Below are positions 909 to 15,473 of a stretch of 64,000 nt of DNA, one piece after another. Below the pieces are notes generated by a model. The model did no database searches, was not told the origin of the DNA, and saw only the letters and a list, made by a program, of their open reading frames with translations. The DNA comes from Abditibacteriota bacterium. Its GTDB lineage: Bacteria; Armatimonadota; UBA5829. Location: contig JAFSVJ010000028.1 of assembly GCA_017445025.1 (NCBI GenBank), forward strand, positions 30,707-94,706. Direction: 5' to 3'. Numbering within the stretch: position 1 is the stretch's first letter; each line of letters begins with the position of its first letter. Position numbers and translations under genes: made by a program.

Positions 909-2181
909 TTTTATCACTCTCCCCCGGCAAAATATCAATTAAAGATTTTCGAATAAACTTCAATAATTCTTCATCATCTAAATAATCATAATAGCCATTA
1001 CGAGCTGGTTCTGTATACTCTTCACTTTGTTCTTTGTATTTAACAAAACTATCACCATATTTTTCAATAAAAGTTCCATCATCAATTGACAATATCATTT
1101 CAGCCACAACACCTATAGCATTAGGTTGTTTTGCCATTTCTCCCAAATTATACACACCTTCTATATTATCAATAAATTCTGATACATAAACATCTTCTGC
1201 CACATAACCGTTTACGGCAGATTGGTTTTCTTCCATTTCTTCTCTGATTTTATCATGTTTTTCTTTTGAAAGATTTCCGATTAGGTTCACCTTATATAAA
1301 TTTAAACTATGTTTACATTCCAAATTTTCATTTAAAATAGAACTTAAAGAATGTTCATCACTAAAATCTGACACATCCGCATCCACTAATTCATAATATA
1401 CTTTTGAAAAAGATTCAAAGCAGAAATTAACCTTATCTAATTTTTCATCTAATTCCAACGTCCAAAAACCATGTTCACCCTTTTCACCAAAATCAAAAGC
1501 CTGAGGAGAACCTAAACTAACATACTTATCTTTTTCTTCTTTTTTATGAGTGTGACCAATTAAAGTAATAATAGAGTTATTTATTACATCACCATTTAAG
1601 CTGTCTTTAAATGGGCCATATTTATTATCTTTTTCATTAGCATTATAATCCCCGTGAATCATAATTATATATTTATCGTCTTCAATTTTTAATTTTATTT
1701 CTTTATTATCTTCATTTTTTAATTTTCTTTTAAATGGATTTGTTTTTAAATCATCATCTAATCCGAAACCGTAAATACTTAATCCATTAAGATCAAACCT
1801 TTGCCACTTGCAACCACAACCTATCAAATGAACGAAAGAATAAGGAGTATTAGATAATAAATCTGAAAGTCGTGACTTATCATGATTTCCCGGAATCATA
1901 ACAACTTCTATATTTTTATCTTTTAGTTTTTCAAAACCGTTATTAAGAATTTGACGTGACGTAAAAGTGGATGTATCCTCATCTAATATATCCCCACAGA
2001 TTAATATAGCATCATAGTTGTTTTGAGAAGCTATATCAATAATATCATACCAAGCTTTTTCCGCAGTAAAATCTTCAATATTATATTTTTCAGGTATTTT
2101 TTTTGAAAAATTACCCAAGTGTAAATCTGCTGTGCAAAGAATTTTCATATTACATTCCTCCTTGTCTTTTTTATTTCTCAA
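901..2181 (-). CDS. SbcD/Mre11-like calcineurin-type metallophosphoesterase (DNA repair exonuclease subunit-like)
   Basis: N-terminus MKILCTADLHLG, then GDILD and GNHD metallophosphoesterase motifs. 426 aa. Translationally coupled to the downstream ATPase. Confidence 0.7.
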   Translation of the reverse strand: MRNKKDKEECNMKILCTADLHLGNFSKKIPEKYNIEDFTAEKAWYDIIDIASQNNYDAILICGDILDEDTSTFTSRQILNNGFEKLKDKNIEVVMIPGNHDKSRLSDLLSNTPYSFVHLIGCGCKWQRFDLNGLSIYGFGLDDDLKTNPFKRKLKNEDNKEIKLKIEDDKYIIMIHGDYNANEKDNKYGPFKDSLNGDVINNSIITLIGHTHKKEEKDKYVSLGSPQAFDFGEKGEHGFWTLELDEKLDKVNFCFESFSKVYYELVDADVSDFSDEHSLSSILNENLECKHSLNLYKVNLIGNLSKEKHDKIREEMEENQSAVNGYVAEDVYVSEFIDNIEGVYNLGEMAKQPNAIGVVAEMILSIDDGTFIEKYGDSFVKYKEQSEEYTEPARNGYYDYLDDEELLKFIRKSLIDILPGESDKNE

Positions 2182-2273
2182 TATTATATACCGAATTTTT
2201 CAAAATAAAATCTAAAAAAAACAGTGTTTTTTATGGGATTTTTATAAATGTCTATATTTTATGACAAATGTCT

Positions 2274-2612
2274 TTATTTTATCTCAAGTTTTTGTCTGTT
2301 GCCACATTTGCGACATGTGAAAGTTGTGTTCATACTTATGGAGGCTCTTGTTTCGGAAGAATTCTCCACATTGCCACATTTTTCACACTTTCTACGAATT
2401 GTTATTAAGTGTCCGTCATCTTTTGTGATAACACAACCCTGTATTGCCACACGAGGAGGCTTTTTGGTTCTCTCAAAAATGCTTTCGCTGTCTGTGGTCT
2501 GTGAGCTACTGTAACTACTTGTTTCGTTATCATTTGTGGTGCAACACAGACCTACAAAGCATAAACCCAAAGCCAATACCAACACTACAATTTTTGTTTT
2601 TAAACTCTTCAT
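2274..2612 (-). CDS. small secreted/membrane-anchored protein with C-terminal CxxC...CxxC zinc-ribbon
   Basis: N-terminal hydrophobic signal-like segment (IVVLVLALGLCFVGLCC), a Ser/Thr-rich linker, then CEKCG...CRKCG. Confidence 0.45.
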   Translation of the reverse strand: MKSLKTKIVVLVLALGLCFVGLCCTTNDNETSSYSSSQTTDSESIFERTKKPPRVAIQGCVITKDDGHLITIRRKCEKCGNVENSSETRASISMNTTFTCRKCGNRQKLEIK

Positions 2613-2628
2613 TTTTTATCTCCTTATA

Positions 2629-3687
2629 TTAATAAATATAACCTTTACAGGATAACATAACAGCTTGTGCAAAGCTGTGAGCGCTTGTCCATTTCTCAGA
2701 TAATTCTTTCGGTTTATAAAAAACACTCTCAGTATGTAGTTTCTTTGCTCTCAACAAATCACAACAGATTGAAATAACTTCAAAATTCAATATCTCAAAG
2801 GGACCTATCTCTACCTTAGATTTATCCTTATATAGATAAAATGTCTTTCCGGATTCAATGTAAATAACACAGTTAAGATTAAAACTATCCATTACATCTA
2901 AAACAGATGATATAAACCCTTCCCTATCATCATTTTTAAAGGGAACAAGCAAAGATTGTTCTTCATATTGATGAAGCGTATCGGGGATTGGTTGGTTATT
3001 TCTATAATAACTGTCCCTCAATTGTTCCTTTCGTTCCGCAAATCTTAACTTCTTTTCACGAAGTTTCTTTTTTAAATTCTCGTGCTTTTCTGTATCAACA
3101 CTTAATTGCTTATGTTTCCTTTCAATAATTTCTTTATCACTCAAACCTTCTAAAGAAGCGTTAGAATCAACACCATAAACATTAATTATCACAAAATCGT
3201 GAAATTTAGATAAAAAACCAATCTCATCTGCGGATCTTCCGGGACATACTACGCTAATCCATTTTGTAGCTTTTGAGATTTTTTCAAGATAATCTTCCAG
3301 ACTTTTTTGCTTATCTTCATAATGTGCCTTTTTTGCTTTTTTTATAATATGTTTAACAATATCTGTTTCTTCACTAAGGACATTTAACAAAAATGATTTA
3401 CCGACTTTATTTATAAATATTAATGAATCGGCATAATTTTCATCCTCACTCAATTCAACTATGGATAATATATGTGCTTGTGGGCTGTTTTCTTCTACCA
3501 TATCTTTTGTTAAAGAGTGGCAGGAATATCTGTCCATCTTGTCAAATAATTCTTCACGATACTTAGTGGCTTTCTCTGCTCCGGCAAGGTCGCCTTCTAC
3601 TTCTAAAGCTTTGATTGTACCATAAGCTCGGTTGAACTCTGTGTAGAGCTGCATTGGAATTTCTTTTAATTTTTTTCCTAATAACAT
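2629..3687 (-). CDS. hypothetical protein (352 aa), first gene of operon with zinc-ribbon protein and SbcCD-like pair
   Basis: Long ORF with protein-like composition and no motif I can assign. Its stop is 16 nt upstream of the next minus-strand start. Confidence 0.5.
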   Translation of the reverse strand: MLLGKKLKEIPMQLYTEFNRAYGTIKALEVEGDLAGAEKATKYREELFDKMDRYSCHSLTKDMVEENSPQAHILSIVELSEDENYADSLIFINKVGKSFLLNVLSEETDIVKHIIKKAKKAHYEDKQKSLEDYLEKISKATKWISVVCPGRSADEIGFLSKFHDFVIINVYGVDSNASLEGLSDKEIIERKHKQLSVDTEKHENLKKKLREKKLRFAERKEQLRDSYYRNNQPIPDTLHQYEEQSLLVPFKNDDREGFISSVLDVMDSFNLNCVIYIESGKTFYLYKDKSKVEIGPFEILNFEVISICCDLLRAKKLHTESVFYKPKELSEKWTSAHSFAQAVMLSCKGYIY

Positions 3688-3807
3688 TTGTATTCCTCCA
3701 TAATAATTATAACATTTTATTTAATCTTTGTCAACAGATTTATAAGGTTTAAAAAACATAAAATAAATTGTCTTTTAAACCCGACAAAACTGTTAATTTC
3801 TGACGGG

Positions 3808-3880
3808 TATGGGTGGGGAGATATTTTTCTTTTGTGTCACACTTTTCTCCTTTTCTCTCTCCCCACCCATATATTATAAA
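3808..3880. repeat. perfect 13-bp inverted repeat (atgggtggggaga / tctccccacccat) with ~45-nt spacer, upstream of the 352-aa gene
   Basis: Read directly from the sequence. GC-rich palindrome in an AT-rich leader region. Confidence 0.4.
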
Positions 3881-4007
3881 AAAAAACATCTAACAATCTA
3901 CTTTTAAGAGTAATTAAGTGCCTAAACCATATATAGCCATATTTTCAAAATTGTATATTTCATAAAAATTTATCATATATGACTAATAACACTCTCTGTT
4001 TAGGATT

Positions 4008-4199
4008 CTATTTTTCCAATACCTTTTCTTTAAACTCTTGTGGTAAATCTAAGTATTCAAGAACAACAAAATCTATACCATCTACATTATCTACAATTAA
4101 GTCAACGGCTACTAAATCATCTTTCCCTTTAATCTTATGCTTAAACATTATAACGAGGACACTTAATTTTAACATAGCAGCTACAGGTAAATTATCCAT
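4008..4199 (-). CDS. small hypothetical protein (63 aa)
   Basis: ORF lying 11 nt downstream of the 64-aa ORF on the same strand. No recognisable motif. Confidence 0.3.
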   Translation of the reverse strand: MDNLPVAAMLKLSVLVIMFKHKIKGKDDLVAVDLIVDNVDGIDFVVLEYLDLPQEFKEKVLEK

Positions 4200-4210
4200 A
4201 GATAATTCAA

Positions 4211-4405
4211 TTAATTCTTGAAAAAAGATGCTCTGTCAAAACAGGTCTCTCCATACCCCTCTAACCCTATCATTCTTAAAATGTCACTATTCCATATTAG
4301 GGTTATTGTATCTATTTTGGCTTCGGCTCCTTTGGCAATAAATTTTACCAAATATTGTTTCGTTACGGAGATTATCTCCTTTTCATTTTCGTTTTTTGTT
4401 GACAT
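4211..4405 (-). CDS. small hypothetical protein (64 aa), paralog-like to 15070..15213
   Basis: Preceded by RBS GGAGGTGA. It sits immediately downstream (minus sense) of repeat R1. A C-terminal segment NSDILRMIGLEGYGE resembles VSDLFGSKVVELMGE in the 47-aa gene that follows repeat R2. Confidence 0.45.
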   Translation of the reverse strand: MSTKNENEKEIISVTKQYLVKFIAKGAEAKIDTITLIWNSDILRMIGLEGYGETCFDRASFFKN

Positions 4406-4435: not shown

Positions 4436-4545
4436 AAGGTTTTTCCCCTTCCATATATATATAGTCATATTTCCACCCAAAATTGCCATTTTTTCAAAAA
4501 ATTTTTTTTAAAAAAAGTGATACCATGTTTTCACATAGTATCACT
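4436..4545. repeat. ~110-bp direct repeat R1 (terminator hairpin plus putative promoter module); second copy at 15321..15446
   Basis: Shared core ccttccatatatatatagtcatatttccacccaaaattgccattttttcaaaaaa plus gataccatgttttcacatagtatc in both copies, with small indels. Confidence 0.8.
4508..4543 (-). terminator. putative rho-independent terminator for the island-1 operon (inside repeat R1)
   Basis: Minus strand reads gatactatg-tgaaaac-catggtatc, a 9-bp stem with one G-U pair, followed by a U-run. Confidence 0.4.
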
Positions 4546-4635
4546 AAATAAATCTTAAATATATGAATTGTAATTGGATGATAATTTTACAATCACAATT
4601 CACATAAAGGCTTAATTTTAATATTGATAAAAATC

Positions 4636-6228
4636 TTACCAATTATTTCTGCGTTTTGCCCACAATGATTGTGCTTCTTTCACTAAATCATACATAAACT
4701 CTCTAACCATACCCGAAAACAAATTATCAATACTAGTATCCGGGAATAATTCATTAAATGCTTCTAATATATGAAGAATATAGTCAGGAGTGGCTGTAGG
4801 CAAAACATATTTATTCCTAAGATAAATTGAATCATGAGGACCAAAATCATCAAAGAATTCAACTGTCTTACTCTTTCCTGCTTTAATATAATTATAAAAG
4901 TCTTTTTCCAACTTTAAGTGTTTTTCTTCTTTTACTATTCTTTCCCACGCAGCTCGACCAAATAAATCTTTAACAGAGAATTTTATTTTCATTCCTGAAG
5001 GAAGAAGGGAAGCCAAAGCCAAAGCTATATCCAAAAGAGAGTCCAATTTTGGATACATTAAATTCTTTATACTATTCCAAACTATTTTACCCACAAAATC
5101 TTCCAAATTCAAAGGTTTAACACTATGTGATGAAAGCCAATGATCTTCTGTTATAATTATATCATCATCACCAAATTCTTTATCTAATCCTTCAATATTA
5201 TCGAACGATCCACCTTCGTCATCATATTCCATTTCATCATAATCTTCATCATTTATGTCTATTCCGGAAAATATTATATTAAAGGCCCTTAAAATGCCTA
5301 AAATATAATCTAAATCTGCAGGTGGTAATTTGACACTATTTCTTTCATAGAGTGTTTCTTCTACCGGGCCGTTATCCTCAACAATTTCTATAGATTTACT
5401 TTTTCCCTCTTTGATATAATTATAAAAGTCTTTAAAAAGCTTTTGATCTTCTTCAGCACCAACAATTCTATCCCAAGCTTTTTTGCTAAAGAGTTTGCGA
5501 ATATTAAATTTAATTCCCTTGCCGGCAGGAAGAAGATTTGCCAAAGCAATAGCAATTTGGAGCAAGGTTCGTGGTTTTTTGTTATGATTATCTATAGTAT
5601 TTTTAATTAAAACGCCAAAAATGTCACATTTATCTAAAGGATACTCTTCAGGGAATAAAGCATTAAAGGAATCCATAATCTCTCTTATATATTCCTCGTC
5701 TGCGGGAGGCAAAACCACATCATTTCGCTTGTATATAGCTAATTTAGGGGTGATATCATTATAGATTTCAAGAGCAGCTTCTTTTTTGGCTTTAACATAA
5801 TCATAGAATTCTTCTGTAAGACCGGAATATAAGCCATATTTTTTGATTCTCTTCAAAGCTTCTCTGCTAAACAATTCCTCTATTCTAAACATGGTATTGA
5901 AAGGCAAGAGGCAAGCTAATCTTACAGCTATTTCCAACAATGTCAATTTTCTCTTGGATTTGCCAGATGAAATTGTTTTTACAATATTATTATTACTCCT
6001 AAGAGATAATTTTGTATAGATTTTTAATGACTCAGAAAGAGTGATTAAATCCAAATCAGATTTATCTCTAAGGTTTTCAAATTCCTCTTCAACTTCTTGA
6101 GCTAATTTTAATGCTTTAATTTCATCCCACAGAGATGCATTAAATAAAGCTGATACGGTAAAAGCGGAATCTTTAGGTTTGTTCATTGCCTCGCTTATGG
6201 CAATCTTTGCAATGGTTTTAGGGTCCAT
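4636..6228 (-). CDS. hypothetical protein with three tandem ~110-aa internal repeats (last gene of island-1 operon)
   Basis: Three repeat units each contain LLxIAxxLAxLLPxG ... FxxKxW(D/E)RI ... LPPAD(x)DYIxxIxxxFN. The start is 17 nt downstream of the SNF2 gene stop. Confidence 0.6.
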   Translation of the reverse strand: MDPKTIAKIAISEAMNKPKDSAFTVSALFNASLWDEIKALKLAQEVEEEFENLRDKSDLDLITLSESLKIYTKLSLRSNNNIVKTISSGKSKRKLTLLEIAVRLACLLPFNTMFRIEELFSREALKRIKKYGLYSGLTEEFYDYVKAKKEAALEIYNDITPKLAIYKRNDVVLPPADEEYIREIMDSFNALFPEEYPLDKCDIFGVLIKNTIDNHNKKPRTLLQIAIALANLLPAGKGIKFNIRKLFSKKAWDRIVGAEEDQKLFKDFYNYIKEGKSKSIEIVEDNGPVEETLYERNSVKLPPADLDYILGILRAFNIIFSGIDINDEDYDEMEYDDEGGSFDNIEGLDKEFGDDDIIITEDHWLSSHSVKPLNLEDFVGKIVWNSIKNLMYPKLDSLLDIALALASLLPSGMKIKFSVKDLFGRAAWERIVKEEKHLKLEKDFYNYIKAGKSKTVEFFDDFGPHDSIYLRNKYVLPTATPDYILHILEAFNELFPDTSIDNLFSGMVREFMYDLVKEAQSLWAKRRNNW

Positions 6229-6245: not shown

Positions 6246-9200
6246 TTAGTGTTTTTTATTTTCATATCCTACTATTATTTTGGTTTCTTTTTCCTCAGTC
6301 CTGTTTATAGAATTGATATATTTGGATTTACCTAAATCTTCATACAATTCTGTTATTTTTGCTTCCAATTTATCATCATCTTTCCAATCTTTGATTTTTC
6401 TATAATCAAAAGTTGACAAAGTCCCTAATCCTGTAATATCATCTATAAGGGCTTTTATGAAATCTTTATACTTGGCGCAAGAATGATATCTGTCTTTCTT
6501 TATTATACCTTCAAGAGACTTAAGAGTATTATAGGCTTTTTCTTCATCTCCCTTTTTAGGTAAAGAATGTCTGATTCCTGCATTAACATCTATAAGCTTA
6601 GGATACATATTCCAGAAATTATCGGAAAAAGTTTCAAGTGGGGTATCCGGGTCACACTTGATTTTATCTATCAAATCCTTATTAAGCTTGGTCTCAACAT
6701 AACTTTTGCTTGTATCAAAATTAAAGTGGCGAACAAACATATCATTTTTAAGAATAAAGAGTATTAATTCATTGTCTGTGCCTAATTTACAGGTTTTGAT
6801 TCTGTAAGGCATTTTATCAATATTCTTTAATGCTTCCTGAACTTTAGGATCTGTGCTTTCTTCAATGGATTTATAGAGTTTTCGAACATAAGTGTAAAAG
6901 CTCTCTTCTTCATCCTCATAAGGCAACTTATGTAACGCTTCGGAAAGCTCCGCCGCAGTAGGCTCTTCATCCGGAGTGAAGATTTTGGCATCTTCACCTA
7001 AAATATTGTGAATCAACAGCATTTTTTGAGTGGCAATTTGTTTAACTCGAACAGTGTCGGAAGTTAATTCTGAAGGGAAGAAGTTATAAATGTAAAGTTT
7101 GTCAAAGACTTTTGCGGAAATTCTGTTCATTCTTCCCACTCTTTGAATAACACGCACCGGGTTCCAAGGAATATCATAGTTTATTACAACACCGGCTCTG
7201 TTAAGGTTATGTCCTTCACTCATTTTATCCGTAGAAACAAGAATGTGTTTATCGTTAGTTTGGTCTTTGCAAGAATAATCAAATTCTTTTTCTATTTCTT
7301 CAATTTTTATACTGGAACCATAGACATATTCTATGTCATCTCTATGTAATCCGTCAAATTTATTCCTTAGATGTTTAACTGTATCCGCAAATTCTGTAAA
7401 TACCAATATTTTTCTATTAGGTTCTTTTGCTTTGATTCCATCTACAATTTTAACCAATTCTTCAAACTTAGGGTCTTTATCAACCATCTTAAGGTCTTCA
7501 CACCTTTCTTTAATTTTGGTAAATAAATCTATATCTTTTTTAATATCCTCTAAAAAATCCGCTTCGCCTGAAGGGGTAAATTCATATACATCATATTCTT
7601 TTCCCTTTTTGGCTTGCATTTCTTTTAACTTTTCTAAAACTTCATCATCATCCAAATCGACACAATCTGTCATAAATTTTCTGTTTAATACATAATAACC
7701 ATTAGTTGTGACAAAGGAATATATTTCAATATTTGTTTGAAGATATCTTTTAACGGATTCATAAAAAGCACCAAAAGAAGACTCAAGTCTTTTAACTATG
7801 ATTCTTTTCATAAAATCATACAATTGATCTTGATACTGTTTTGCCAATTTCTTAGATACAGAATTCTTTGCATCATAATTTACAGGACGATAAATAGCTC
7901 CTATAAAATCTCCGCCGGTTTTAGAAAAATACCTCAATATATCATCATAAAAATCTGATAAATCCGGCTCTAAAAAATATAAAGCTTCTCTGGGGTCTTC
8001 AATGGTAGAAAGGTCTCCTGTTTCTTTTTTATAATCCGGGTTGTTTAATATATCAAGTCTGTTTCTTCTTATAATATAACTTGAAATATCATCTTTGACC
8101 TCTCCCCCAACATCTTTCATCATTTTGTGCAATTTATCAATCTCAGGTTTACCTATTGAAGCAACTTTAACGCCGGGCAAGTATTTACTCAATAATCTAT
8201 CAATCTTAGCTAATTTTGCAGGATCTGTAGATCTATAATCTTTAATAATAGAATTAATATCTTCTATACGAGCTTTAACATCCATAAACTTTTCAAACAA
8301 AGAATATCCATAGGATGCAGATACAAATTTAGTAGGTAAGAACAATTTTAAAATACTATGAATATCCCAAAAGGTGTTATTGAATGGAGTAGCGGTTAAT
8401 AAAATAACTTTTTTGTTTTTACAGATAGTATTTAGATAACCATAGGTATCGTTTTTGTCATTTCTAAACCTATGAGCTTCGTCGATAATTACATTATCAA
8501 AATCAGAATATAATTTTCTCTCATAAATATACTTTAAATTGGAAAAGCTTGAAGATTCAACCTCACCTCGTATATTAAATTTATACTTATAATCTTTCCA
8601 ACCATATGAACCTGGTTCACCTATAAGATTAGGTGGACACAAAATAAGAGTGTTACCTGGCAATTGGGTGGCTATTACAGAAGCAATAATACTTTTTCCG
8701 AGACCTACAACATCACCGAGAATAACTCCACCATAGTCTTCTATTTTACCCAAAGCCTCACGAATAGCATCTATTTGAAATCTAAAAGGCTTAAATCCGG
8801 CTTTATCCAATATTTGAGGAATATTTTTATCATCTTCCATATCCAATGACAGATAGGTTTTTAGTATATAGATATAGGCTTCATAAGGGGTCACCTTTCT
8901 GCAATGGGTTTCCTTAGTCAAGATTTCAATAATATCTTTCTTTATAGAATCATCTTCGGTAATTAAAATAGCATCTCTCCAAAGATTTTCAAAATATTCA
9001 TCTGCTTCAATATAATCTTTAGCATGATTTACTTCAACATTAAATTCATCTTGACGGAACAAACCGGCAGATGTAAAATTGGAAGACCCGGTTATAAAAC
9101 GATTGTCTTTTCCATCTTTAGGATAGGCAAAGAGATATAATTTTGAATGATTATCTTTATTGGTTTTACGGATGATGATTTTTCCTTCTTTAATCCATTT

Positions 9201-9521
9201 TATAAAATCCTCATATTGGTCGTAAAACTCTTTTTTATCCAGAGCTTCAGAACAAAAGTTTTCTCTGACAGAAGAGAGAAATTTCTCAACGCCTTCACCG
9301 GAAATAGCCTTAACTATAATACTCTCGGAATTAAGGCCCACAAGTATTCTTAATTTAAGGTCATTCTTTTCAGCTTTGGCTTTTAGTTCTTGGTAGAGTT
9401 CCGGGATCGCGGAAAAATAGAAGTATCCCACCAAGAATTTCATTTCTGTAGATGTAGGAATTAAATCTTGAAATTTGGCTTTTAATGTGGTTGTGTCGTT
9501 ATTAATAATTAAGTTTGGCAT
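6246..9521 (-). CDS. fused phospholipase-D-family nuclease / SNF2-family (SF2) helicase
   Basis: N-terminal HKD motif NHSKLYLF...GSSNFTSAG. Helicase motifs: I (GDVVGLGKS), II (IIDEAHRFRN), III (LLTATPFNN) and VI (VIQRVGRMNRI). 1091 aa. Confidence 0.8.
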   Translation of the reverse strand: MPNLIINNDTTTLKAKFQDLIPTSTEMKFLVGYFYFSAIPELYQELKAKAEKNDLKLRILVGLNSESIIVKAISGEGVEKFLSSVRENFCSEALDKKEFYDQYEDFIKWIKEGKIIIRKTNKDNHSKLYLFAYPKDGKDNRFITGSSNFTSAGLFRQDEFNVEVNHAKDYIEADEYFENLWRDAILITEDDSIKKDIIEILTKETHCRKVTPYEAYIYILKTYLSLDMEDDKNIPQILDKAGFKPFRFQIDAIREALGKIEDYGGVILGDVVGLGKSIIASVIATQLPGNTLILCPPNLIGEPGSYGWKDYKYKFNIRGEVESSSFSNLKYIYERKLYSDFDNVIIDEAHRFRNDKNDTYGYLNTICKNKKVILLTATPFNNTFWDIHSILKLFLPTKFVSASYGYSLFEKFMDVKARIEDINSIIKDYRSTDPAKLAKIDRLLSKYLPGVKVASIGKPEIDKLHKMMKDVGGEVKDDISSYIIRRNRLDILNNPDYKKETGDLSTIEDPREALYFLEPDLSDFYDDILRYFSKTGGDFIGAIYRPVNYDAKNSVSKKLAKQYQDQLYDFMKRIIVKRLESSFGAFYESVKRYLQTNIEIYSFVTTNGYYVLNRKFMTDCVDLDDDEVLEKLKEMQAKKGKEYDVYEFTPSGEADFLEDIKKDIDLFTKIKERCEDLKMVDKDPKFEELVKIVDGIKAKEPNRKILVFTEFADTVKHLRNKFDGLHRDDIEYVYGSSIKIEEIEKEFDYSCKDQTNDKHILVSTDKMSEGHNLNRAGVVINYDIPWNPVRVIQRVGRMNRISAKVFDKLYIYNFFPSELTSDTVRVKQIATQKMLLIHNILGEDAKIFTPDEEPTAAELSEALHKLPYEDEEESFYTYVRKLYKSIEESTDPKVQEALKNIDKMPYRIKTCKLGTDNELILFILKNDMFVRHFNFDTSKSYVETKLNKDLIDKIKCDPDTPLETFSDNFWNMYPKLIDVNAGIRHSLPKKGDEEKAYNTLKSLEGIIKKDRYHSCAKYKDFIKALIDDITGLGTLSTFDYRKIKDWKDDDKLEAKITELYEDLGKSKYINSINRTEEKETKIIVGYENKKH

Positions 9522-9618: not shown

Positions 9619-11460
9619 TTATATTTTTTTAAAAATCAAATTAACCAATTCTGTAGCTATTTCTTCCCCTCGCTCAGTTATATCTTTCCAAGTAGTAAAA
9701 GTAGTATAGCTTTCAGAATCAATTAAGGCATTTCTCTTGCTTGTTATTGGATCTTTATAAAATATCCTGGTATTTCCGATTTTATTTAAGCAAGAATCTT
9801 TAAAGTTTTTGTAAAGTTTATCCTTACACTCCTTAGGAAAATCACAACCGGATTTATAAACTGTTATACCATTATCATCATCTAAACCATCCATATAGTA
9901 TTGATATGAAGGATCAGAAGAACTTGGATTTTCGGGACATATATAATCTAAAATAAGCTCATCAAAATCTAAATCCAATAAATTATAAGCTTCTTTATAA
10001 TCAATGGTTCCTGATCCTTTTACGGATGCCATATAAAAAGCCAATAATATCATTGCCAACTTATTCTTATATGCATTCATATTTATAATTTCGGACAGAA
10101 CTGAACTATCAGGCAACTTGTTTATATAAGAATCTATTGTAGAAATTATATTAGTTATATTATAAGGTATGGTTTTATCAATCATATATCCCAATATATC
10201 TTTATACAAAGGAATTGAATCTTTACTGTCCCTATTGCAAACTGAAAGATATAAAAAAGAGTGTAGAATTACTTTTGAAACTGCATCTTCTACTTCCTTG
10301 GCAGTCAAAAAGGTTTCTTTATAATCATGCAAAAGTCTGAATATAAATGGCTTTGGATGTTTGTAGGAACCGTTTACAAATATTTTATAGAAAAATTTGA
10401 ATTTATCTCTGTTGATTAAGGTATATGTTTTATCTTCTGAGGTCAACATTTGATAAAACTCAACTTTATCATTTAAATCATCCAAGAATTTCTTCAAAGC
10501 TTCCGTTTCATCGCTTACACCATAATATTCTACCAATTCGTCTACAATCGTTTTTTTGAAATGACTTATTTTAATATTATTATTGTAAAACTTGATAAAA
10601 GCCTTTATATAAGTAGTTAAATAGTCATATAATTGGTCATTGGTTTTAATAATAAGATTTCCCCAAACAGACAAATAATGATGATGACTGGCTTCATCAA
10701 GTTTTGAGAAAATATAAGTCTTTATAAGATCTATATCTTCCAATTGTTTTCCTTTGGAATTAATTGATTCAAAGATAGAGAAAACTTTGGTTTGTTTGCA
10801 GTTGGAATCTATCACTATAAACCTAACAAAATTTAACAAATACTCGGCAAAAGCCAATAAATCATTAGAATCCGAAAATTCTTTTTTCAAATATTGATTT
10901 ATAAACTTAAAATTATCTATAACTCTTTTTTCAAAAGAATTGGCCGGGACAAATGATGAAATAAAATCGTCTATATTGGTGGGATCGTCAAATGCATAAT
11001 CAAATAATTGAGCAAAACAGGTTTTTTCTATACTGTTTAGGGAAATTAATCTTTGATCTTTGATATGTTTCCTGCCGACAACTTTCCATAAACAATTCTT
11101 CAATTTTACAATTGTTAAATCGCTTTCAGGTTCTCCGTTTTTTAATGCTCTTGTATATACTGACAAAAAAATCAAGGCAAAGGTGGTTATTCTTTGTTGA
11201 CCGTCTATAATATCATAAATGTTAATGTTTCCGTTAATTTTAGGTAAGGGAGTCTCATAAATTATAATATTACCGGTGTAATATCCTTCACTTCTTTCAT
11301 CAATATCGGTTAAATCAAAGACTTCTTTAATATCAATCAACAACTGATCAATATTTTCCTTATCCCAAGAATAAGGTCTTTGATACACAGGAACTGTGTA
11401 AGCTGACTTGAATAAATCTTCCAAGTCCATTGAAGCGGGGTCAAAAGTTTTTTTTGGCAT
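9619..11460 (-). CDS. DUF262 (ParB/Srx-like) + C-terminal DUF1524-like nuclease; GmrSD/BrxU/SspE-like type IV restriction-like enzyme
   Basis: N-terminal YQRPYSW and DGQQRITT motifs typical of DUF262. 613 aa with a C-terminal Cys/His-containing region. The start is 21 nt downstream of the MTase stop. Confidence 0.7.
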   Translation of the reverse strand: MPKKTFDPASMDLEDLFKSAYTVPVYQRPYSWDKENIDQLLIDIKEVFDLTDIDERSEGYYTGNIIIYETPLPKINGNINIYDIIDGQQRITTFALIFLSVYTRALKNGEPESDLTIVKLKNCLWKVVGRKHIKDQRLISLNSIEKTCFAQLFDYAFDDPTNIDDFISSFVPANSFEKRVIDNFKFINQYLKKEFSDSNDLLAFAEYLLNFVRFIVIDSNCKQTKVFSIFESINSKGKQLEDIDLIKTYIFSKLDEASHHHYLSVWGNLIIKTNDQLYDYLTTYIKAFIKFYNNNIKISHFKKTIVDELVEYYGVSDETEALKKFLDDLNDKVEFYQMLTSEDKTYTLINRDKFKFFYKIFVNGSYKHPKPFIFRLLHDYKETFLTAKEVEDAVSKVILHSFLYLSVCNRDSKDSIPLYKDILGYMIDKTIPYNITNIISTIDSYINKLPDSSVLSEIINMNAYKNKLAMILLAFYMASVKGSGTIDYKEAYNLLDLDFDELILDYICPENPSSSDPSYQYYMDGLDDDNGITVYKSGCDFPKECKDKLYKNFKDSCLNKIGNTRIFYKDPITSKRNALIDSESYTTFTTWKDITERGEEIATELVNLIFKKI

Positions 11461-11481: not shown

Positions 11482-14400
11482 TTATTTTTCAATTATTTTA
11501 ATTTCGTCATCAGTTAGATCATAAAGCTGATACACAAGGGTGTCGATTTCTTTTTCAAGGCTTGTGGTGTCCTTGCCTTGCTTTTTGCCCTCTGTAATTT
11601 GATCCACCAAATTCTCTATTTGATTGGCTATCTGCATGTTATCATCTTTTATTTCAGGAATAGGAAGTTTAATAACATCTTGAGTAAACCATCTTACAGC
11701 ATTTGTTCCTAATGAATTTCCATAATATGATATAAATGCATATCTTATTAATCTTGAATTTAATAAACCACAAATATATTTTACATTATTACCTGTAAGC
11801 ATATAACAAGTATTTAATAAATAATAACATTCATAATCATATATCATTTCTCCATCTGATATATCAGCCCATATAATTTTAGGTTTTTCATAATCTTTAT
11901 AATAATTTATTGTAGTTTGAGTTTCATACCATTTTCCAGAGGTTTTACTTCTTGCCTTAAAAGAACCATAATTTTTACCTGTCTGTTCAAGTCTTCTTTT
12001 ATCAAAATTATCTAAAAAGTATTTTTCAATTGTGGGATAATCTTTTATATTCAAATGTAAAGCCGGAAAAATTCCTATCACCCACAAATTAGCCCAATGA
12101 TATTCATATCTCTTTACATCTGAACCACGCAAGATGGGTTTAATTATTTTCTCCGTTCTCTGTCGTTCGGCAGATGTGGAACAGTTGTTTAAAATCTCGT
12201 CTTTGGTAGCTGTATCTATAATAAAAGCGTCATTAAAGCCGGTTTTAATACCATAATTAATGGTAATATCATCCCATTCTCCTAATGGTGTGCCTATATG
12301 CTCTATTTTTTTCTTTAGTGATACTTCTTCTCTTGATCCTATAAACCAACTGTCACTTGATAATTCTTTTAATATGACAGAATTATTGGTTATATAATCT
12401 CCCAAATTATCTTTAGGATTTTGACCTTTTCCCACCTTTAATGAACAAGCTTCAAGATCATAATGTATTTTTTCCTTTTTAATCAATAATATATTTGTAT
12501 CTACAGTTGCACTGTCAAAGACTCCGGGGCCTAAGTCTATCAACATCTTGGGGTTAAAATTGCAGAAATAGCCTCTTAACTTTTCACCATATCCGGCACG
12601 CATCCATTTGTTGGAGGTGATATAACATAAATTACCACCTGTCTTTAACAAATTCATTCCTTTTTCATAAAATAAACAATATATATCTCCACTACCATCA
12701 TGGGTTTCAAAACCTTGGGAAGCATATCGGTCTCTTAAATCTTTAGGTTTTATTTTTTGAAGTGGTATATAAGGCGGGTTTGCTATAACAATATCAAATC
12801 CTTCTTCAATACCAAACATCCATTTCGGATCAAACCAAGGGCAGGATTTGTTCTCAAAAGGATTCCAATCACATATAAACTGAATTCTTTCACTATCAGA
12901 ACCAATTTCTATGGCCTCATCTCTTATATTTTTTAATTTATATAAATACTCATCTTTTAATCTGTCTTTATCGTTTCCATGAGCATTTAAATAATCTTTT
13001 CTTATTTTTTGTAAATCTTTAATATCATTATCAAAATAACTATCGGAAAGATCTTTTGAGTCCGGTAAAGCAATTAAAGTATTGGCAGATACAAATTTAA
13101 AATCCAAATTAGGCAAAGGGAAAATATTTCTGTTTTCAACACCATCGTCTACTCTTTCATCTACAATTAAAGATAAAAAACATCTAAGCCTTGCAATATC
13201 CGTAGCCATGGTTTGTATATCCACACCATAAACAGAATTTCTGATAATTCCCAACTTATGTATATAACTTATGGCTTCTTGATTAAGTTTTGTTTCATAA
13301 GCCTCAAAAGCTTCCGTTAAAGTTGTTTTATCATGAGCCAGTATATAGTTTCTCCATAACTTTCCGTCGACATCCAATTTCCCTAAAATAAATAATATCT
13401 TCTGTAGCAGTCCCATAGGAAAGGCACCGGAACCACAAGCGGGATCAAGAATCTTAATATTGTATAAAGCTTCTGTTAATATTACTGTGACACATTGATC
13501 AAAAGGATTAGTCTCTTCATTAACGTCAAACAATTTATCTAACTTATCTTTATCTTTACAGAATTTATACAAATACTCCTTTAAACTCTCTTCACACATA
13601 TAATCCACTATTTCTCTAGGAGTATAAAAAGAACCGGAAGACTTTCTTGCATCTTCTTGGGTGACAGGATCTATAAATGCCAAAAGGTTTTCAAATATTT
13701 TACCCAACATTTCAGGGTCCACAGATATATCTGTATCGTTTACAGAGTTTTCATCTATAGTAAAATTAAATCTCCCGAATAAATCAAATAGTTTTATAAA
13801 CCATTGATTTGAAACTTTTAACACACCTGTGTTTGAATAATCACCTTTGTATTTATCTTCATCAATACATTGGAACAAACCACCGTTTAAATAAGGAACA
13901 AAATTAAAGTCATTTTGAGAAACAATATTATTATTTAATGTTTTATTATATTCTGTATAATCTCTTAAAGATTTGTTCTTATTAAGAACTTCAAAAAACA
14001 ATGTTTGTAGAACATAAGTATAGTATCCGCAATCGGAAGTCATTTTTTCAATAGTTTCAATACTTAAAATCTTATCCGGAATAATCTCCTTTCCTTGAAT
14101 TGATTTCTTTTGTTTCAAAAACCAACAGAATAAAATTCTTCCCAACAAACGAATTATAAATTTATTCTTATCTTCTTCCAATCCTTGATATTTCATCAAA
14201 GTCTTATCATTTTGTAAAGACAAATATAAGTCTTGAATTTCTTTATAAAATTCTTTTGTTACTTTTTCGATGGAGAAGGAGTCTGATAAGTCTTCAACCT
14301 TAAGCCACCTTTGATATTCTCCGGAAGAAGTCCGGTTTGCCACATATTTTTCAAAAGTCTTGTTGTTCTTAACAACCAATTCACCCTCATCATTTTCTTC

Positions 14401-14868
14401 CATTTGGAAAAAATGGGTTTGTCTGTTATACTTTGTAAACTCTACCTTTCCTTCACCGGGATAGATTTTTCTGACAAGGGACAGACGACAAGAAAGACTG
14501 TCGTTGTCATAAAAAGCCACCAAAGCAAAATCATAATCACTGCTTTTAATCAAATCCTTGATAATCTTAAACTGAAAAGATTTACTGCTTTTTTCCGTTA
14601 AGTTGTGGGACTTATCTTCACCTTTTTTTTCATTATACTCACTTACATAATCTTTATAATTGATTAAATAGCAAATAACATTATCGGAGCTGATTTTTCC
14701 ATATCCCAATTCTGTGATTGGACAACGGTTATCATCTGTAGTCTCCCTTGTTTTAGCTTCATCAATAATAGGATTGAATTTTCTTCTGATTAAGTCTGAT
14801 AAATAGGATTCTAATTTTGTTGGTGTTTTTGCCATTTTTAATTCTCTGTCATAATAATCGTTTAACAC
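11482..14868 (-). CDS. large gamma-class N6-adenine DNA methyltransferase (PglX / DrmMI / type IIG-IIL-like), 1128 aa
   Basis: Motif X GSFYTPREIVDYM, motif I ILDPACGSGAF, motif IV IANPPY. Long N- and C-terminal extensions, the C-terminal one TRD-like. Confidence 0.8.
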   Translation of the reverse strand: MLNDYYDRELKMAKTPTKLESYLSDLIRRKFNPIIDEAKTRETTDDNRCPITELGYGKISSDNVICYLINYKDYVSEYNEKKGEDKSHNLTEKSSKSFQFKIIKDLIKSSDYDFALVAFYDNDSLSCRLSLVRKIYPGEGKVEFTKYNRQTHFFQMEENDEGELVVKNNKTFEKYVANRTSSGEYQRWLKVEDLSDSFSIEKVTKEFYKEIQDLYLSLQNDKTLMKYQGLEEDKNKFIIRLLGRILFCWFLKQKKSIQGKEIIPDKILSIETIEKMTSDCGYYTYVLQTLFFEVLNKNKSLRDYTEYNKTLNNNIVSQNDFNFVPYLNGGLFQCIDEDKYKGDYSNTGVLKVSNQWFIKLFDLFGRFNFTIDENSVNDTDISVDPEMLGKIFENLLAFIDPVTQEDARKSSGSFYTPREIVDYMCEESLKEYLYKFCKDKDKLDKLFDVNEETNPFDQCVTVILTEALYNIKILDPACGSGAFPMGLLQKILFILGKLDVDGKLWRNYILAHDKTTLTEAFEAYETKLNQEAISYIHKLGIIRNSVYGVDIQTMATDIARLRCFLSLIVDERVDDGVENRNIFPLPNLDFKFVSANTLIALPDSKDLSDSYFDNDIKDLQKIRKDYLNAHGNDKDRLKDEYLYKLKNIRDEAIEIGSDSERIQFICDWNPFENKSCPWFDPKWMFGIEEGFDIVIANPPYIPLQKIKPKDLRDRYASQGFETHDGSGDIYCLFYEKGMNLLKTGGNLCYITSNKWMRAGYGEKLRGYFCNFNPKMLIDLGPGVFDSATVDTNILLIKKEKIHYDLEACSLKVGKGQNPKDNLGDYITNNSVILKELSSDSWFIGSREEVSLKKKIEHIGTPLGEWDDITINYGIKTGFNDAFIIDTATKDEILNNCSTSAERQRTEKIIKPILRGSDVKRYEYHWANLWVIGIFPALHLNIKDYPTIEKYFLDNFDKRRLEQTGKNYGSFKARSKTSGKWYETQTTINYYKDYEKPKIIWADISDGEMIYDYECYYLLNTCYMLTGNNVKYICGLLNSRLIRYAFISYYGNSLGTNAVRWFTQDVIKLPIPEIKDDNMQIANQIENLVDQITEGKKQGKDTTSLEKEIDTLVYQLYDLTDDEIKIIEK

Positions 14869-15069
14869 CGGTCAAAATTTGGTGCAAAACCACCTCTATT
14901 ATACATCAAAAAAAAAAAAAGCAAATCACAAGTCATTTTTGGTGGGATGAAAGAAAAAAGTGCTTTTTTAAGCCAAAAACAAACAATTTCTCTCAAACTC
15001 GTCCTCTGTCACCGGAAAACCTACTTATAAGATTAAATTAATTTGGAATGCATTTGCATCTGTGGATAT

Positions 15070-15213
15070 TTATCTCTCTATACTCTCCCCCATTAATTCC
15101 ACAACCTTTGATCCAAATAAATCGGATACAGTTAAATCCGTCCCTTTTGGAAATCTTATTGCCGCTAAAATGGCAAATGCCAATTTAACAAATACATTCG
15201 TTTTTGAATCCAT
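15070..15213 (-). CDS. small hypothetical protein (47 aa), not in ORF track
   Basis: Manual translation gives MDSKTNVFVKLAFAILAAIRFPKGTDLTVSDLFGSKVVELMGESIER. A GGAGGT RBS lies 3 nt upstream. It sits just downstream (minus sense) of repeat R2, mirroring the 4211..4405 gene after R1. Confidence 0.4.
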   Translation of the reverse strand: MDSKTNVFVKLAFAILAAIRFPKGTDLTVSDLFGSKVVELMGESIER

Positions 15214-15320: not shown

Positions 15321-15446
15321 AAGGTTTTCTTTTCTCCCTTCCATATATATATAGTCATATTTCCACCCAAAATTGCCATTTTTTCAAAAAAAATTTTTAA
15401 ATATTTTTTGACAAAAAAAAAGATACCATGTTTTCACATAGTATCT
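15321..15446. repeat. direct repeat R2 (copy of 4436..4545)
   Basis: Same core sequence and hairpin as R1. Confidence 0.8.
15411..15445 (-). terminator. putative rho-independent terminator downstream of dxs (inside repeat R2)
   Basis: Minus strand: 9-bp stem gatactatg/catggtatc, 6-nt loop, then a 9-U run. Confidence 0.45.
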
Positions 15447-15473
15447 TATTCTTACGAGTTTAAGGGGTAAGGA

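What the first reader, a model, noticed from the sequence alone, without database searches (positions are those of the whole stretch)
4636..6228. 530-aa protein made of three tandem ~110-aa repeats, terminal gene of the island-1 operon
Three collinear repeats can be read directly (RKLTLLEIAVRLACLLPFNTMFRIEELFSREALKRI..., PRTLLQIAIALANLLPAGKGIKFNIRKLFSKKAWDRI..., LDSLLDIALALASLLPSGMKIKFSVKDLFGRAAWERI...). Each ends in an LPPAD.DYI..IL.AFN..FP segment. An acidic linker (DEDYDEMEYDDEGGSFD) separates repeats 2 and 3. I cannot place the repeat in a known family. Its tight linkage (17-nt gap) to the PLD-SNF2 gene suggests a sensor/adaptor role in the putative defence system.
Basis: seen in the sequence. 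Interest (0 to 1): 0.55.

Follow-up and report, generated by a model that had tools for sequence, protein, structure and literature searches.

The report
Four-winged-helix DUF1413 protein ending a defence operon
The 530-aa repeat protein is a tandem array of four LP1413/DUF1413-type winged-helix (probably single-stranded-DNA-binding) domains that is transcribed with a restriction-like helicase/methylase operon, but it is a rare add-on in this lineage and not a conserved part of that defence system.

Summary

The repeat does belong to a known family, Pfam DUF1413 (76.5 bits against a cutoff of 25). Its solved member, LP1413 of SCCmec (PDB 6BTC), is a winged helix that binds ssDNA and is encoded beside a helicase. 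AlphaFold models (pLDDT 90) show a winged helix followed by acidic helices. 6BTC is the top PDB fold hit (TM 0.55), but the E-value of 0.72 is weak.

The gene is the last of a four-gene operon: Eco57I-type methylase, HEC-06-like GmrSD, HKD-SNF2 helicase-nuclease, then this protein. It starts 17 nt after the helicase stop and is followed by a strong terminator.

The helicase family is very large and nearly always paired with the methylase. None of 84 related loci carries a protein like this one. Only two relatives exist among 1.84 billion representative proteins, and one sits in a related genome without the R-M genes in between.

Best reading: a nucleic-acid-binding accessory specific to this lineage. 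It is a paralog of a gene native to this defence hotspot and was captured into a swappable cargo operon. A sensor or adaptor role is possible but unsupported.

The parts
4636..6228 (-). REP gene: 530-aa protein made of four DUF1413 winged-helix domains (NCBI MBQ7256598.1, 'DUF1413 domain-containing protein', Abditibacteriota MAG)
   Evidence: ORF. Pfam PF07205 E 1.8e-21, 76.5 bits. Exact match in NCBI.
5965..6228 (-). W0: N-terminal winged-helix copy (aa 1-88). It is slightly acidic (pI 5.1) and has no helical extension.
   Evidence: BLASTP against R2 E 4e-6. Pfam DUF1413 14.2 bits, profile positions 2-31. pI.
5581..5955 (-). Repeat 1 (aa 92-216): basic winged-helix core (aa 92-175, pI 9.4) followed by acidic helices A and B (aa 176-216).
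   Evidence: (13.1 bits, profile positions 10-69).
5053..5580 (-). Repeat 2 (aa 217-392): basic core (aa 217-303, pI 9.5), helix A, an acidic insertion of about 40 aa (net charge -16 over aa 326-392), then helix B.
   Evidence: (28.7 bits, E 1.5e-6). The insertion and helix B are read from the sequence.
4639..5052 (-). Repeat 3 (aa 393-530): basic core (aa 393-478, pI 9.2), helices A and B, and a basic C-terminal tail.
   Evidence: Pfam 37.0 bits, E 3.9e-9. AF2 models with pLDDT 89.9 and 90.0. Foldseek top hit 6btc_A.
4516..4545 (-). Intrinsic terminator that ends the operon (13-bp stem followed by a T-run).
6246..9521 (-). HKD(PLD)-SNF2 helicase-nuclease, 1091 aa, immediately upstream of REP (17-nt gap).
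   Evidence: Pfam PLDc_2, SNF2-rel_dom and Helicase_C. PADLOC 'HKD+Snf2'. More than 6600 homologs. The HxK, GSSN, GLGK, DEAH and QRxGR motifs are invariant in alignment A3.
9619..11460 (-). Embedded GmrSD-like DUF262 gene, 613 aa; its best PADLOC match is HEC-06.
   Evidence: Pfam GmrSD_N E 4.6e-32. PADLOC HEC-06 E 1.2e-34. HEC-06 was validated as a defence gene in bioRxiv 10.1101/2024.01.29.577857.
11482..14868 (-). Eco57I-family N6-adenine methylase with a TaqI_C specificity domain, 1128 aa; first gene of the operon.
   Evidence: Pfam. PADLOC REase_MTase_IIG E 1e-170. Paired with the helicase in most related loci.
14897..14962 (-). Promoter-like module (…TGATGTATAAT) at the 5' edge of the cargo slot. 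The same module drives a different cargo in L098.
   Evidence: 84% identity to L098 42-106; the similarity ends right after TATAATA.
4440..4545 (-). Copy B of a direct repeat of about 115 nt (terminator plus promoter-like module), at the 3' edge of the cargo slot.
15330..15447 (-). Copy A of the same repeat, just downstream of dxs.
15070..15213 (-). 47-aa truncated paralog (frag47). It is the positional ortholog of the N-terminus of the 204-aa DUF1413-like gene P0002/P0125 found in related genomes.
   Evidence: 58% aa identity to the P0002 N-terminus. Leader plus 5' coding region is 77-91% nt identical to L001 and L098.

Best explanation
REP is a multi-domain nucleic-acid-binding protein. It has four LP1413/DUF1413-type winged-helix domains in tandem. 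Three of them have basic cores, each followed by two acidic helices, and a strongly acidic insertion lies within repeat 2.

By analogy with LP1413, the only characterised family member, the basic cores most likely bind single-stranded DNA. LP1413 is a monomeric winged helix that binds ssDNA tightly and is encoded in one operon with the Cch helicase. Four linked domains would bind multivalently, as RPA does with its OB folds. The acidic segments would act as self-inhibiting or partner-binding elements.

The gene is co-transcribed as the last gene of a swappable defence cargo operon (methylase, GmrSD-like gene, HKD-SNF2 helicase-nuclease, REP). It is not a conserved component of that restriction-like module. 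It is a paralog, specific to this lineage, of a small DUF1413-like gene that natively sits at this hotspot, and it has been recruited behind the helicase. If it acts with the system, it does so as an optional DNA-binding accessory, for example by holding or marking non-duplex DNA for the helicase-nuclease.

- **Shown:** the domain family, the winged-helix model, the charge pattern, the operon signals, membership of the cargo slot, and absence from other loci.
- **Inferred:** DNA binding, preference for ssDNA, and any functional coupling to the helicase.
For: **Family.**
- Pfam DUF1413 scores 76.5 bits against a cutoff of 25.
- All four units map collinearly onto the profile, and R2 and R3 pass the cutoff on their own.

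**Fold.**
- AF2 models reach pLDDT 89.9 and 90.0 with topology H1-b1-H2-H3-b2-b3.
- The top-ranked hit among 350,542 PDB chains is 6btc_A, LP1413, with TM 0.55/0.55 over the full length. Forkhead, histone H1, Rep, MarR and ORC winged helices follow.

**Precedent.** LP1413 binds ssDNA with high affinity, is monomeric, and shares an operon with the Cch helicase (PMC6851490; PMC7581432).

**Charge.** The cores have pI 9.2-9.5, while the extensions and the insertion have pI about 4.

**Operon.**
- The gaps between genes are 21, 97 and 17 nt.
- REP has an AAGGAG ribosome-binding site.
- The only intergenic terminator on this strand lies after REP.

**Cargo slot.** The same promoter module and the same terminator module bracket a PDC-S11 defence candidate in L098.

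**Not a core component.**
- No REP-like ORF occurs in 84 HKD-SNF2 loci.
- The module is helicase plus methylase, with variable embedded genes.
- No Pfam family recurs in more than 3 of 109 neighbouring genes.

**Paralogy with the native gene.**
- P0002/P0125 (204 aa) sits at the syntenic site in related genomes.
- A 47-aa remnant of that gene lies in the window.
- The ribosome-binding site and start region of REP align in register with those of the native gene.
Against: - No DNA-binding data exist for this protein. The whole protein is acidic (pI 5.2), and W0 is not basic.
- The Foldseek E-value for 6BTC (0.72) is not significant by itself. The full 146-aa unit found nothing in PDB or BFVD.
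- Sequence searches against PDB did not reach 6BTC.
- SNF2 enzymes are usually dsDNA translocases, so an ssDNA-binding partner is not an obvious fit.
- Non-conservation does not exclude a real functional coupling in this lineage, and co-transcription does not prove one.
- The alignment of the ribosome-binding-site regions is short (33 nt) and lies in AT-rich DNA.
Confidence: 0.5

Rival explanations
1. REP is an independent passenger. It is a paralog of the DUF1413-like gene native to the hotspot and merely ended up behind the helicase after a recombination or deletion. It has its own function, unrelated to restriction. Co-transcription is incidental.
For: - The native 204-aa relative has its own promoter and leader, and sits next to dxs (or next to a PDC-S11 cargo) without any HKD-SNF2 gene.
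- REP-like proteins are absent from 84 helicase loci.
- The ribosome-binding-site and start region is homologous to that of the native gene.
- The subfamily is confined to a handful of metagenome contigs.
Against: - The 17-nt gap with no promoter or terminator in between, and the position inside the promoter-to-terminator cargo unit, mean REP is always expressed with the system.
- The same arrangement is present in two other samples.
- Defence operons often recruit accessory DNA-binding genes.
Confidence: 0.28
2. REP is an integral sensor or adaptor subunit of the PLD-SNF2/methylase defence system.
For: - It is tightly co-transcribed with the system and its domains are predicted to bind DNA.
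- There is a parallel in the same window. Island 2 ends with a protein of two HARE-HTH winged helices, placed after a helicase-methylase fusion gene.
- LP1413 is also paired with a helicase.
Against: - None of 84 loci encoding full-length relatives of the helicase (30-41% identity) contains it.
- The conserved unit there is helicase plus methylase alone: 30 loci are HM and 6 are MH, with nothing embedded.
- The nearest relatives of REP are not linked to such a helicase on the side that can be seen.
Confidence: 0.12
3. REP is a transcription regulator, like a controller protein or BrxR. It would bind the repeated promoter modules of the locus and tune expression of the cargo operon.
For: - Winged-helix domains are the usual fold of such regulators.
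- The locus carries repeated promoter-like modules with a shared motif (ATATGACTATATATATATGG), at 15330-15447 and 4440-4545, with a partial copy near 3945-3975.
Against: - Regulators of R-M and BREX loci are small, usually sit upstream and often have WYL or Xre domains.
- The only characterised DUF1413 protein binds ssDNA, not operators.
- A four-domain, 530-aa array with acidic insertions is atypical for a repressor.
- No binding site was tested.
Confidence: 0.07

Closest known systems
LP1413 of SCCmec (Pfam DUF1413, PDB 6BTC; Mir-Sanchis, Pigli & Rice 2018, as described in PMC6851490)
   Same: - Same Pfam family.
- Winged-helix topology.
- It is the top structural hit for the repeat core.
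- It is encoded in one operon with a helicase.
   Different: - LP1413 is a 96-aa single-domain monomer encoded upstream of an MCM-like AAA+ helicase (Cch) on a replicative island.
- REP has four copies plus acidic helical extensions and an acidic insertion. It lies downstream of an SF2 SNF2-HKD helicase-nuclease in a restriction-like operon.
- Sequence similarity is detectable only through the family profile.
Hma / DUF499-centred 'Type-2 BREX-related' systems (Payne et al., bioRxiv 10.1101/2024.01.29.577857; PMC12839542)
   Same: - The operon has an HKD nuclease fused N-terminally to a Swi2/Snf2 helicase, plus an N6-adenine methylase.
- A GmrSD-like HEC-06-type gene is embedded between them. 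Embedding of defence genes is the hallmark of these loci.
   Different: - The operon has no DUF499 (HmaC) ATPase and no DUF3780 gene.
- The methylase has a C-terminal TaqI_C domain of type IIG style.
- The HmaA profile matches only the C-terminal half of the helicase.
- None of these systems is described with a DUF1413 protein.
DISARM class 1 (DrmD SNF2 helicase, DrmMI methylase, DrmC PLD nuclease)
   Same: SNF2 helicase, PLD nuclease and adenine methylase functions are combined.
   Different: - DrmA and DrmB (DUF1998) are absent.
- The NCBIfam DrmD score is 117 bits against a cutoff of 610.
- PLD and SNF2 are fused here.
RPA / SSB-type multi-domain ssDNA-binding proteins
   Same: Several small DNA-binding domains in tandem together with acidic segments. 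The resemblance is one of working principle only.
   Different: The fold is different: OB folds in RPA and SSB, winged helices here. There is no homology.
HARE-HTH proteins associated with restriction enzymes (the 374-aa protein at window 26955-28079)
   Same: A tandem winged-helix protein encoded as the last gene of a helicase/methylase restriction-like operon.
   Different: No detectable sequence relationship (hhalign probability 0.1).

Membership tests
Pfam DUF1413 (PF07205) / LP1413 family | Match to the family HMM above the gathering threshold | tested here: met
   The whole protein scores 76.5 bits against a cutoff of 25. Taken singly, R3 scores 37.0 and R2 28.7 bits. R1 (13.1) and W0 (14.2) fall below the threshold but map collinearly onto the profile and are homologous to R2 and R3 by BLAST.
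Pfam DUF1413 (PF07205) / LP1413 family | Winged helix-turn-helix topology (H1-b1-H2-H3-b2-b3) | tested here: met
   DSSP on the AF2 models (pLDDT 90): H6-16, a b-bridge at 24-25, H27-41, H45-57, E64-68, E76-79.
Pfam DUF1413 (PF07205) / LP1413 family | Statistically significant structural match to 6BTC | tested here: inconclusive
   6btc_A ranks first of 350,542 chains, with TM 0.55/0.55 over 87 columns, but E is 0.72 and probability 0.63. The longer model gave no hit.
Pfam DUF1413 (PF07205) / LP1413 family | High-affinity ssDNA binding | not testable with these tools
   Known only for LP1413 (PMC6851490). Here only the basic pI of the cores supports it.
Pfam DUF1413 (PF07205) / LP1413 family | Small single-domain protein of about 80-100 aa | tested here: not met
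   REP is 530 aa with four copies and added helices.
Hma / Type-2 BREX-related system (for the operon) | DUF499 AAA+ ATPase (HmaC) in the locus | tested here: not met
   No ATPase family was found in any of the four operon genes or in the downstream ORFs.
Hma / Type-2 BREX-related system (for the operon) | Standalone DUF3780 gene | tested here: not met
   No such Pfam hit.
Hma / Type-2 BREX-related system (for the operon) | HKD nuclease N-terminal to a Swi2/Snf2 helicase, plus an N6-methylase | tested here: met
   PLDc_2 at aa 26-181, SNF2 and Helicase_C at aa 340-801, and the Eco57I methylase. The catalytic motifs are invariant in alignment A3.
DISARM class 1 (for the operon) | DrmA helicase and DrmB (DUF1998) present; DrmD equivalog score reached | tested here: not met
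   The genes are absent. DrmD scores 117 bits against a cutoff of 610.
Conserved partner of the HKD-SNF2/methylase module | A REP-like or DUF1413 gene adjacent to the module in other genomes | tested here: not met
   No REP-like hit (E<=1) in all ORFs of at least 50 aa of the 84 metagenome loci or the other loci held at that point. No family occurs in more than 3 of 109 neighbours.

The most novel reading that the evidence does not exclude
REP is an RPA-like, multivalent ssDNA sensor built from winged helices. It would detect replication or recombination intermediates of invading DNA and hand them to the dimeric HKD-SNF2 nuclease. It would then be a new type of accessory subunit for BREX-related or Hma-like restriction systems, and would point to a general pairing of DUF1413 proteins with helicases (LP1413 with Cch, REP with SNF2).
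Probability: 0.15. Interest if true: 0.6.

Novelty: new variant of a known kind. Interest (0 to 1): 0.35.

Why it matters
- **A second genomic context for DUF1413.** The family has a structure and an in-vitro activity (ssDNA binding), but its biological role is unknown even in SCCmec/MRSA elements. A four-copy version transcribed with a helicase-nuclease again places the family next to a helicase. This gives a testable lead on what these small winged helices do.
- **A compact defence hotspot.** A promoter-to-terminator slot downstream of dxs holds different defence cargos in related strains.
- **A limit on guilt by adjacency.** A 17-nt gap did not mean a conserved partnership here.

Tried and rejected
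- **Word-indexed homolog searches** with the protein and with a repeat profile found only the protein itself and P0002.
- **Exhaustive phmmer** against 1.84 billion representative proteins found only two relatives.
- **Sequence searches against PDB**, by phmmer and by profile, gave no meaningful hit and did not reach 6BTC.
- **Foldseek with the full 146-aa repeat model** against PDB and BFVD gave nothing with E<0.7. Only the trimmed core put 6BTC first.
- **Mobile-element collections:**
  - tblastn against plasmids and phages gave no match;
  - a scan of viral contigs gave no match;
- **Genome-contig scan with the helicase** returned only 5 distant SNF2 relatives.
- **PADLOC, NCBIfam and PHROGs** had no family for REP.
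- **Relation to the HARE-HTH protein of island 2** was rejected (hhalign probability 0.1).
- **Invertible-element signature**, as seen around a C. difficile DUF1413 gene: no flanking inverted repeats.
- **Rfam** gave only sub-threshold hits on the terminator and leader region.
- **Contig breaks as evidence of strain variation.** I first read the breaks at about 15196 and 3908 that way. Another sample assembles DUF262-HEL-REP-ORF64 contiguously, so at least the break near 3908 could equally be an assembly break at a repeat.
- **L001 tail and 'region X'.** The similarity is weak by alignment (score 35, and one of 200 shuffles reached 36). L098 supports it better.
- **Original LP1413 papers** (PMC6084467, PMC5052118) are not held.
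Full report
**1. The observation**

ORF 4636..6228 on the minus strand encodes a 530-aa protein. I cut it into segments and compared them by BLASTP. This confirmed three collinear repeats: R1/R2 are 42% identical (E 3.5e-22), R1/R3 42% (E 1.1e-21) and R2/R3 51% (E 5.8e-30). At the DNA level the units are only 54-60% identical, so the duplication is old.

The LPPAD..DYI..AFN..FP segment after each repeat is present, as are the acidic run (aa 327-343) and the 17-nt gap to the upstream gene. The gap reads TAA-ATAAAAAGGAGAAACAA-ATG, with an AAGGAG ribosome-binding site. A strong intrinsic terminator lies at 4545..4516 (13-bp stem followed by a T-run). No other intergenic terminator lies on this strand between 14868 and 4636, so this is the terminal gene of a four-gene operon.

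- aa 1-88 is a fourth, shorter copy (E 4e-6 against R2).
- The true unit is about 125 aa: a core of about 85 aa, then helix A (LPPAD...FP), then helix B (DIFGxLIKN-like).
- The acidic 'linker' is an insertion of about 40 aa between helix A and helix B of repeat 2. This is read from the sequence and from the alignment.

**2. What the repeat is**

Pfam places the protein in DUF1413 (PF07205) with E 1.8e-21 and 76.5 bits against a gathering score of 25. Scanned one at a time, the four units give:

| Unit | Bits | Profile positions matched |
|---|---|---|
| R3 | 37.0 | 9-58 |
| R2 | 28.7 | 12-68 |
| R1 | 13.1 | 10-69 |
| W0 (N-terminal copy) | 14.2 | 2-31 |

All four map collinearly onto the 69-position profile.

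DUF1413 is not an empty label. Its member LP1413 of SCCmec was crystallised (PDB 6BTC). It is a winged helix-turn-helix, is monomeric, binds ssDNA with high affinity, and is encoded in one operon with the MCM-like helicase Cch (PMC6851490; PMC7581432; gene layout in PMC8046974).

AlphaFold2 on repeat 3, using the other repeats and P0002 as the alignment, gave confident models:
- The whole unit (146 aa) reached pLDDT 89.9 and pTM 0.85. It shows a winged helix followed by a helical extension.
- The core alone (86 aa) reached pLDDT 90.0, with topology H1-b1-H2-H3-b2-b3.

Foldseek with the whole unit found nothing in PDB or BFVD. With the core alone, the first of 350,542 chains was 6btc_A, LP1413. 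It had TM 0.55/0.55 over 87 columns but E 0.72. FOXO1, histone H1.0, Rep, MarR and ORC winged helices followed. The structural score is not significant alone. However, it converges with the independent Pfam result on the same family.

The three full cores are basic (pI 9.2-9.5, net charge +3 to +5). Their helical extensions are acidic (pI about 4), the insertion in repeat 2 carries net -16, and W0 is mildly acidic.

**3. The operon**

| Coordinates (-) | Gene | Evidence |
|---|---|---|
| 11482-14868 | Eco57I-family N6-adenine methylase with a TaqI_C domain | PADLOC type IIG profile, E 1e-170 |
| 9619-11460 | DUF262/GmrSD_N protein | Best PADLOC model is HEC-06 (E 1.2e-34) |
| 6246-9521 | HKD(PLD)-SNF2 protein | PADLOC 'HKD+Snf2' |

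HEC-06 is a GmrSD-like defence gene discovered embedded in Hma systems (bioRxiv 10.1101/2024.01.29.577857).

The helicase family is very large, with more than 6600 hits at E<1e-20 and about 40% identity over the full length. The HxK/GSSN, GLGK, DEAH and QRxGR motifs are invariant.

The closest described systems are:
- **Hma / 'Type-2 BREX-related' systems** (PMC12839542). These require a DUF499 ATPase and a DUF3780 gene, and neither is present here.
- **DISARM class 1.** DrmA and DrmB are absent, and the DrmD score is 117 against a cutoff of 610.

The operon is therefore an ATP-dependent, R-M-like, two-gene module of this general kind with an embedded type IV-like gene. It is not a member of either named system.

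**4. Co-occurrence test**

I sampled contexts of close helicase homologs. I also scanned metagenome contigs with a 26-sequence profile, which returned 80 loci encoding relatives of 30-41% identity, most of them full length. After simple ORF calling, the layouts of the helicase (H) and methylase (M) were:

| Layout | Loci |
|---|---|
| HM | 30 |
| HxM | 11 |
| HxxM | 4 |
| MH | 6 |
| MxH, MxxH and longer | a few each |
| H alone | 20, many on truncated contigs |

An HMM built from the repeats found no REP-like ORF in any locus at E<=1. A Pfam scan of 109 embedded or downstream neighbours found 110 different families. None occurred in more than three neighbours. They were mostly toxin-antitoxin or defence types such as AbiEii, NTP_transf_2, HigB, Mrr_cat, AAA_14/DUF4143 and KAP. 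The output lists only the first 25 families, so a single hidden DUF1413 hit cannot be excluded, but a recurrent partner can. REP is therefore not a conserved component of the module.

**5. Relatives and the locus**

An exhaustive phmmer search over 1.84 billion representative proteins found only two relatives:
- P0002, 204 aa: the N-terminal copy plus one repeat.
- P0003, 426 aa: the N-terminal copy plus two repeats.

The subfamily therefore shows one, two or three full repeats.

P0002 lies on L001 directly downstream of a dxs gene that is 92% nt identical to the window's dxs (15474-17372). Its leader and 5' coding region are 77% identical to window 15400-15086. At that place the window holds only a 47-aa truncated ORF (15070-15213), 58% identical to the P0002 N-terminus. 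In a related genome, then, a DUF1413-like gene is native to this site with no R-M genes in between.

A direct repeat of about 115 nt (terminator hairpin plus a promoter-like module) occurs exactly twice in the window. One copy is at 15330-15447, after dxs. The other is at 4440-4545, after REP.

A third contig, L098, carries a P0002 variant (P0125). It shows the following:
- The promoter-like module upstream of the window's methylase (14962-14897, ending in TGATGTATAAT) is also present in L098.
- The terminator/promoter module after REP is present there too.
- In L098 these two modules bracket a single 325-aa gene instead. That gene matches the PADLOC defence candidate PDC-S11 (E 1.4e-43).
- The intact 204-aa gene follows.

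This is a promoter-to-terminator cargo slot that holds different defence cargos in related strains, and REP lies inside the slot. The ribosome-binding site and first codons of REP align in register with those of the native gene (27 of 33 nt). This suggests REP is a paralog of the native gene that was joined behind the helicase. The same DUF262-HEL-REP-ORF64 arrangement is seen in two other samples.

**6. Mechanism**

Shown:
- family membership;
- a winged-helix model;
- basic cores alternating with acidic segments;
- co-transcription signals;
- location inside the cargo slot;
- absence from related systems.

Inferred:
- The cores bind nucleic acid, most likely ssDNA as LP1413 does.
- Four linked domains would bind multivalently.
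- The acidic segments would act as self-inhibitory or partner-binding elements.
- REP may assist the helicase-nuclease.

I put 0.5 on 'DNA-binding accessory specific to this lineage, not a core subunit'. The rivals are:

| Rival | Confidence |
|---|---|
| Functionally independent passenger | 0.28 |
| Transcription regulator acting on the repeated promoter modules | 0.07 |

**7. Novelty and verdict**

The domain family, its fold and one biochemical activity are known, and NCBI already labels this protein 'DUF1413 domain-containing'. Two things are new:
- the architecture, with four copies plus an acidic helical extension; only three such proteins were found among 1.84 billion representatives;
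- its place at the end of a restriction-like operon.

This is a new variant of a known kind, of moderate interest (0.35). The functional reading is only partly supported.

Noticed in passing
window 15330-15447 and 4440-4545 (-): A direct repeat of about 115 nt (terminator hairpin GATACTATGTGAAAACATGGTATC, a T-run, and a promoter-like module GGCAATTTTGGGTGGAAATATGACTATATATATATGGAAGGG) occurs exactly twice in the window. The two copies flank the 10.9-kb unit from the 47-aa fragment through REP. A shorter, similar motif lies near 3945-3975.
   Followed up: partly
window 15070-15213 (-): A 47-aa ORF (MDSKTNVFVKLAFAILAAIRFPKGTDLTVSDLFGSKVVELMGESIER). It is the truncated positional ortholog of the 204-aa DUF1413-like gene P0002/P0125 of related genomes. 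Its homology to L001 and L098 stops at 15086.
   Followed up: yes
L098 1-2225; window 14897-14962 and 4441-4593: In a related strain, the promoter module found upstream of the window's methylase and the terminator module found after REP bracket a single 325-aa gene. That gene matches PADLOC defence candidate PDC-S11 (E 1.4e-43). The site is therefore a promoter-to-terminator defence cargo slot downstream of dxs.
   Followed up: partly
window 26955-33124 (-): A second low-GC island. It holds a 1330-aa ResIII helicase fused to an Eco57I methylase, followed by a 374-aa protein with two HARE-HTH winged-helix domains (Pfam E 3.8e-23), and preceded by a 357-aa ORF with no family. This is another restriction-like operon that ends in a tandem winged-helix protein.
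   Followed up: partly
window 9619-11460 (-): The GmrSD-like protein has the DGQQR motif, but Pfam detects only the N-terminal DUF262 domain. Where HEC-06 has the nuclease motif EHICP, this protein reads DYICP (judged by eye, not aligned). Its nuclease may therefore be degenerate.
   Followed up: no
L008-L091 (helicase loci): The HKD-SNF2 helicase family forms a very widespread two-gene module with an Eco57I/TaqI_C methylase. The layouts are HM in 30 loci and MH in 6, and 22 loci have genes embedded between H and M. The embedded genes include toxin-antitoxin and defence types (AAA_14/DUF4143, NTase with a HEPN-like partner). Most loci have no DUF499 ATPase, so the module is simpler than the Hma / Type-2 BREX-related systems described so far.
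   Followed up: partly
window 901-4405 (-): Downstream of the slot lie two small ORFs (64 and 63 aa), a 352-aa protein and a 112-aa protein, none matching any Pfam family (two weak PHROG hits). An SbcD/Mre11-like phosphoesterase (426 aa) follows, overlapped by a further ORF that runs off the window start. This may be another defence-type cluster.
   Followed up: no
L001 1822-1855; window 49268-49301: A GC-rich insert of about 130 nt between dxs and the promoter module in L001 shares a 34-nt stretch (94% identity) with a distant place in the window. It may be a small dispersed repeat element.
   Followed up: no
window 15414-15484 (-): A sub-threshold Rfam hit to the Listeria sRNA sbrA (29.5 bits against a gathering score of 45) falls on the dxs terminator hairpin. 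It is probably just the terminator.
   Followed up: no
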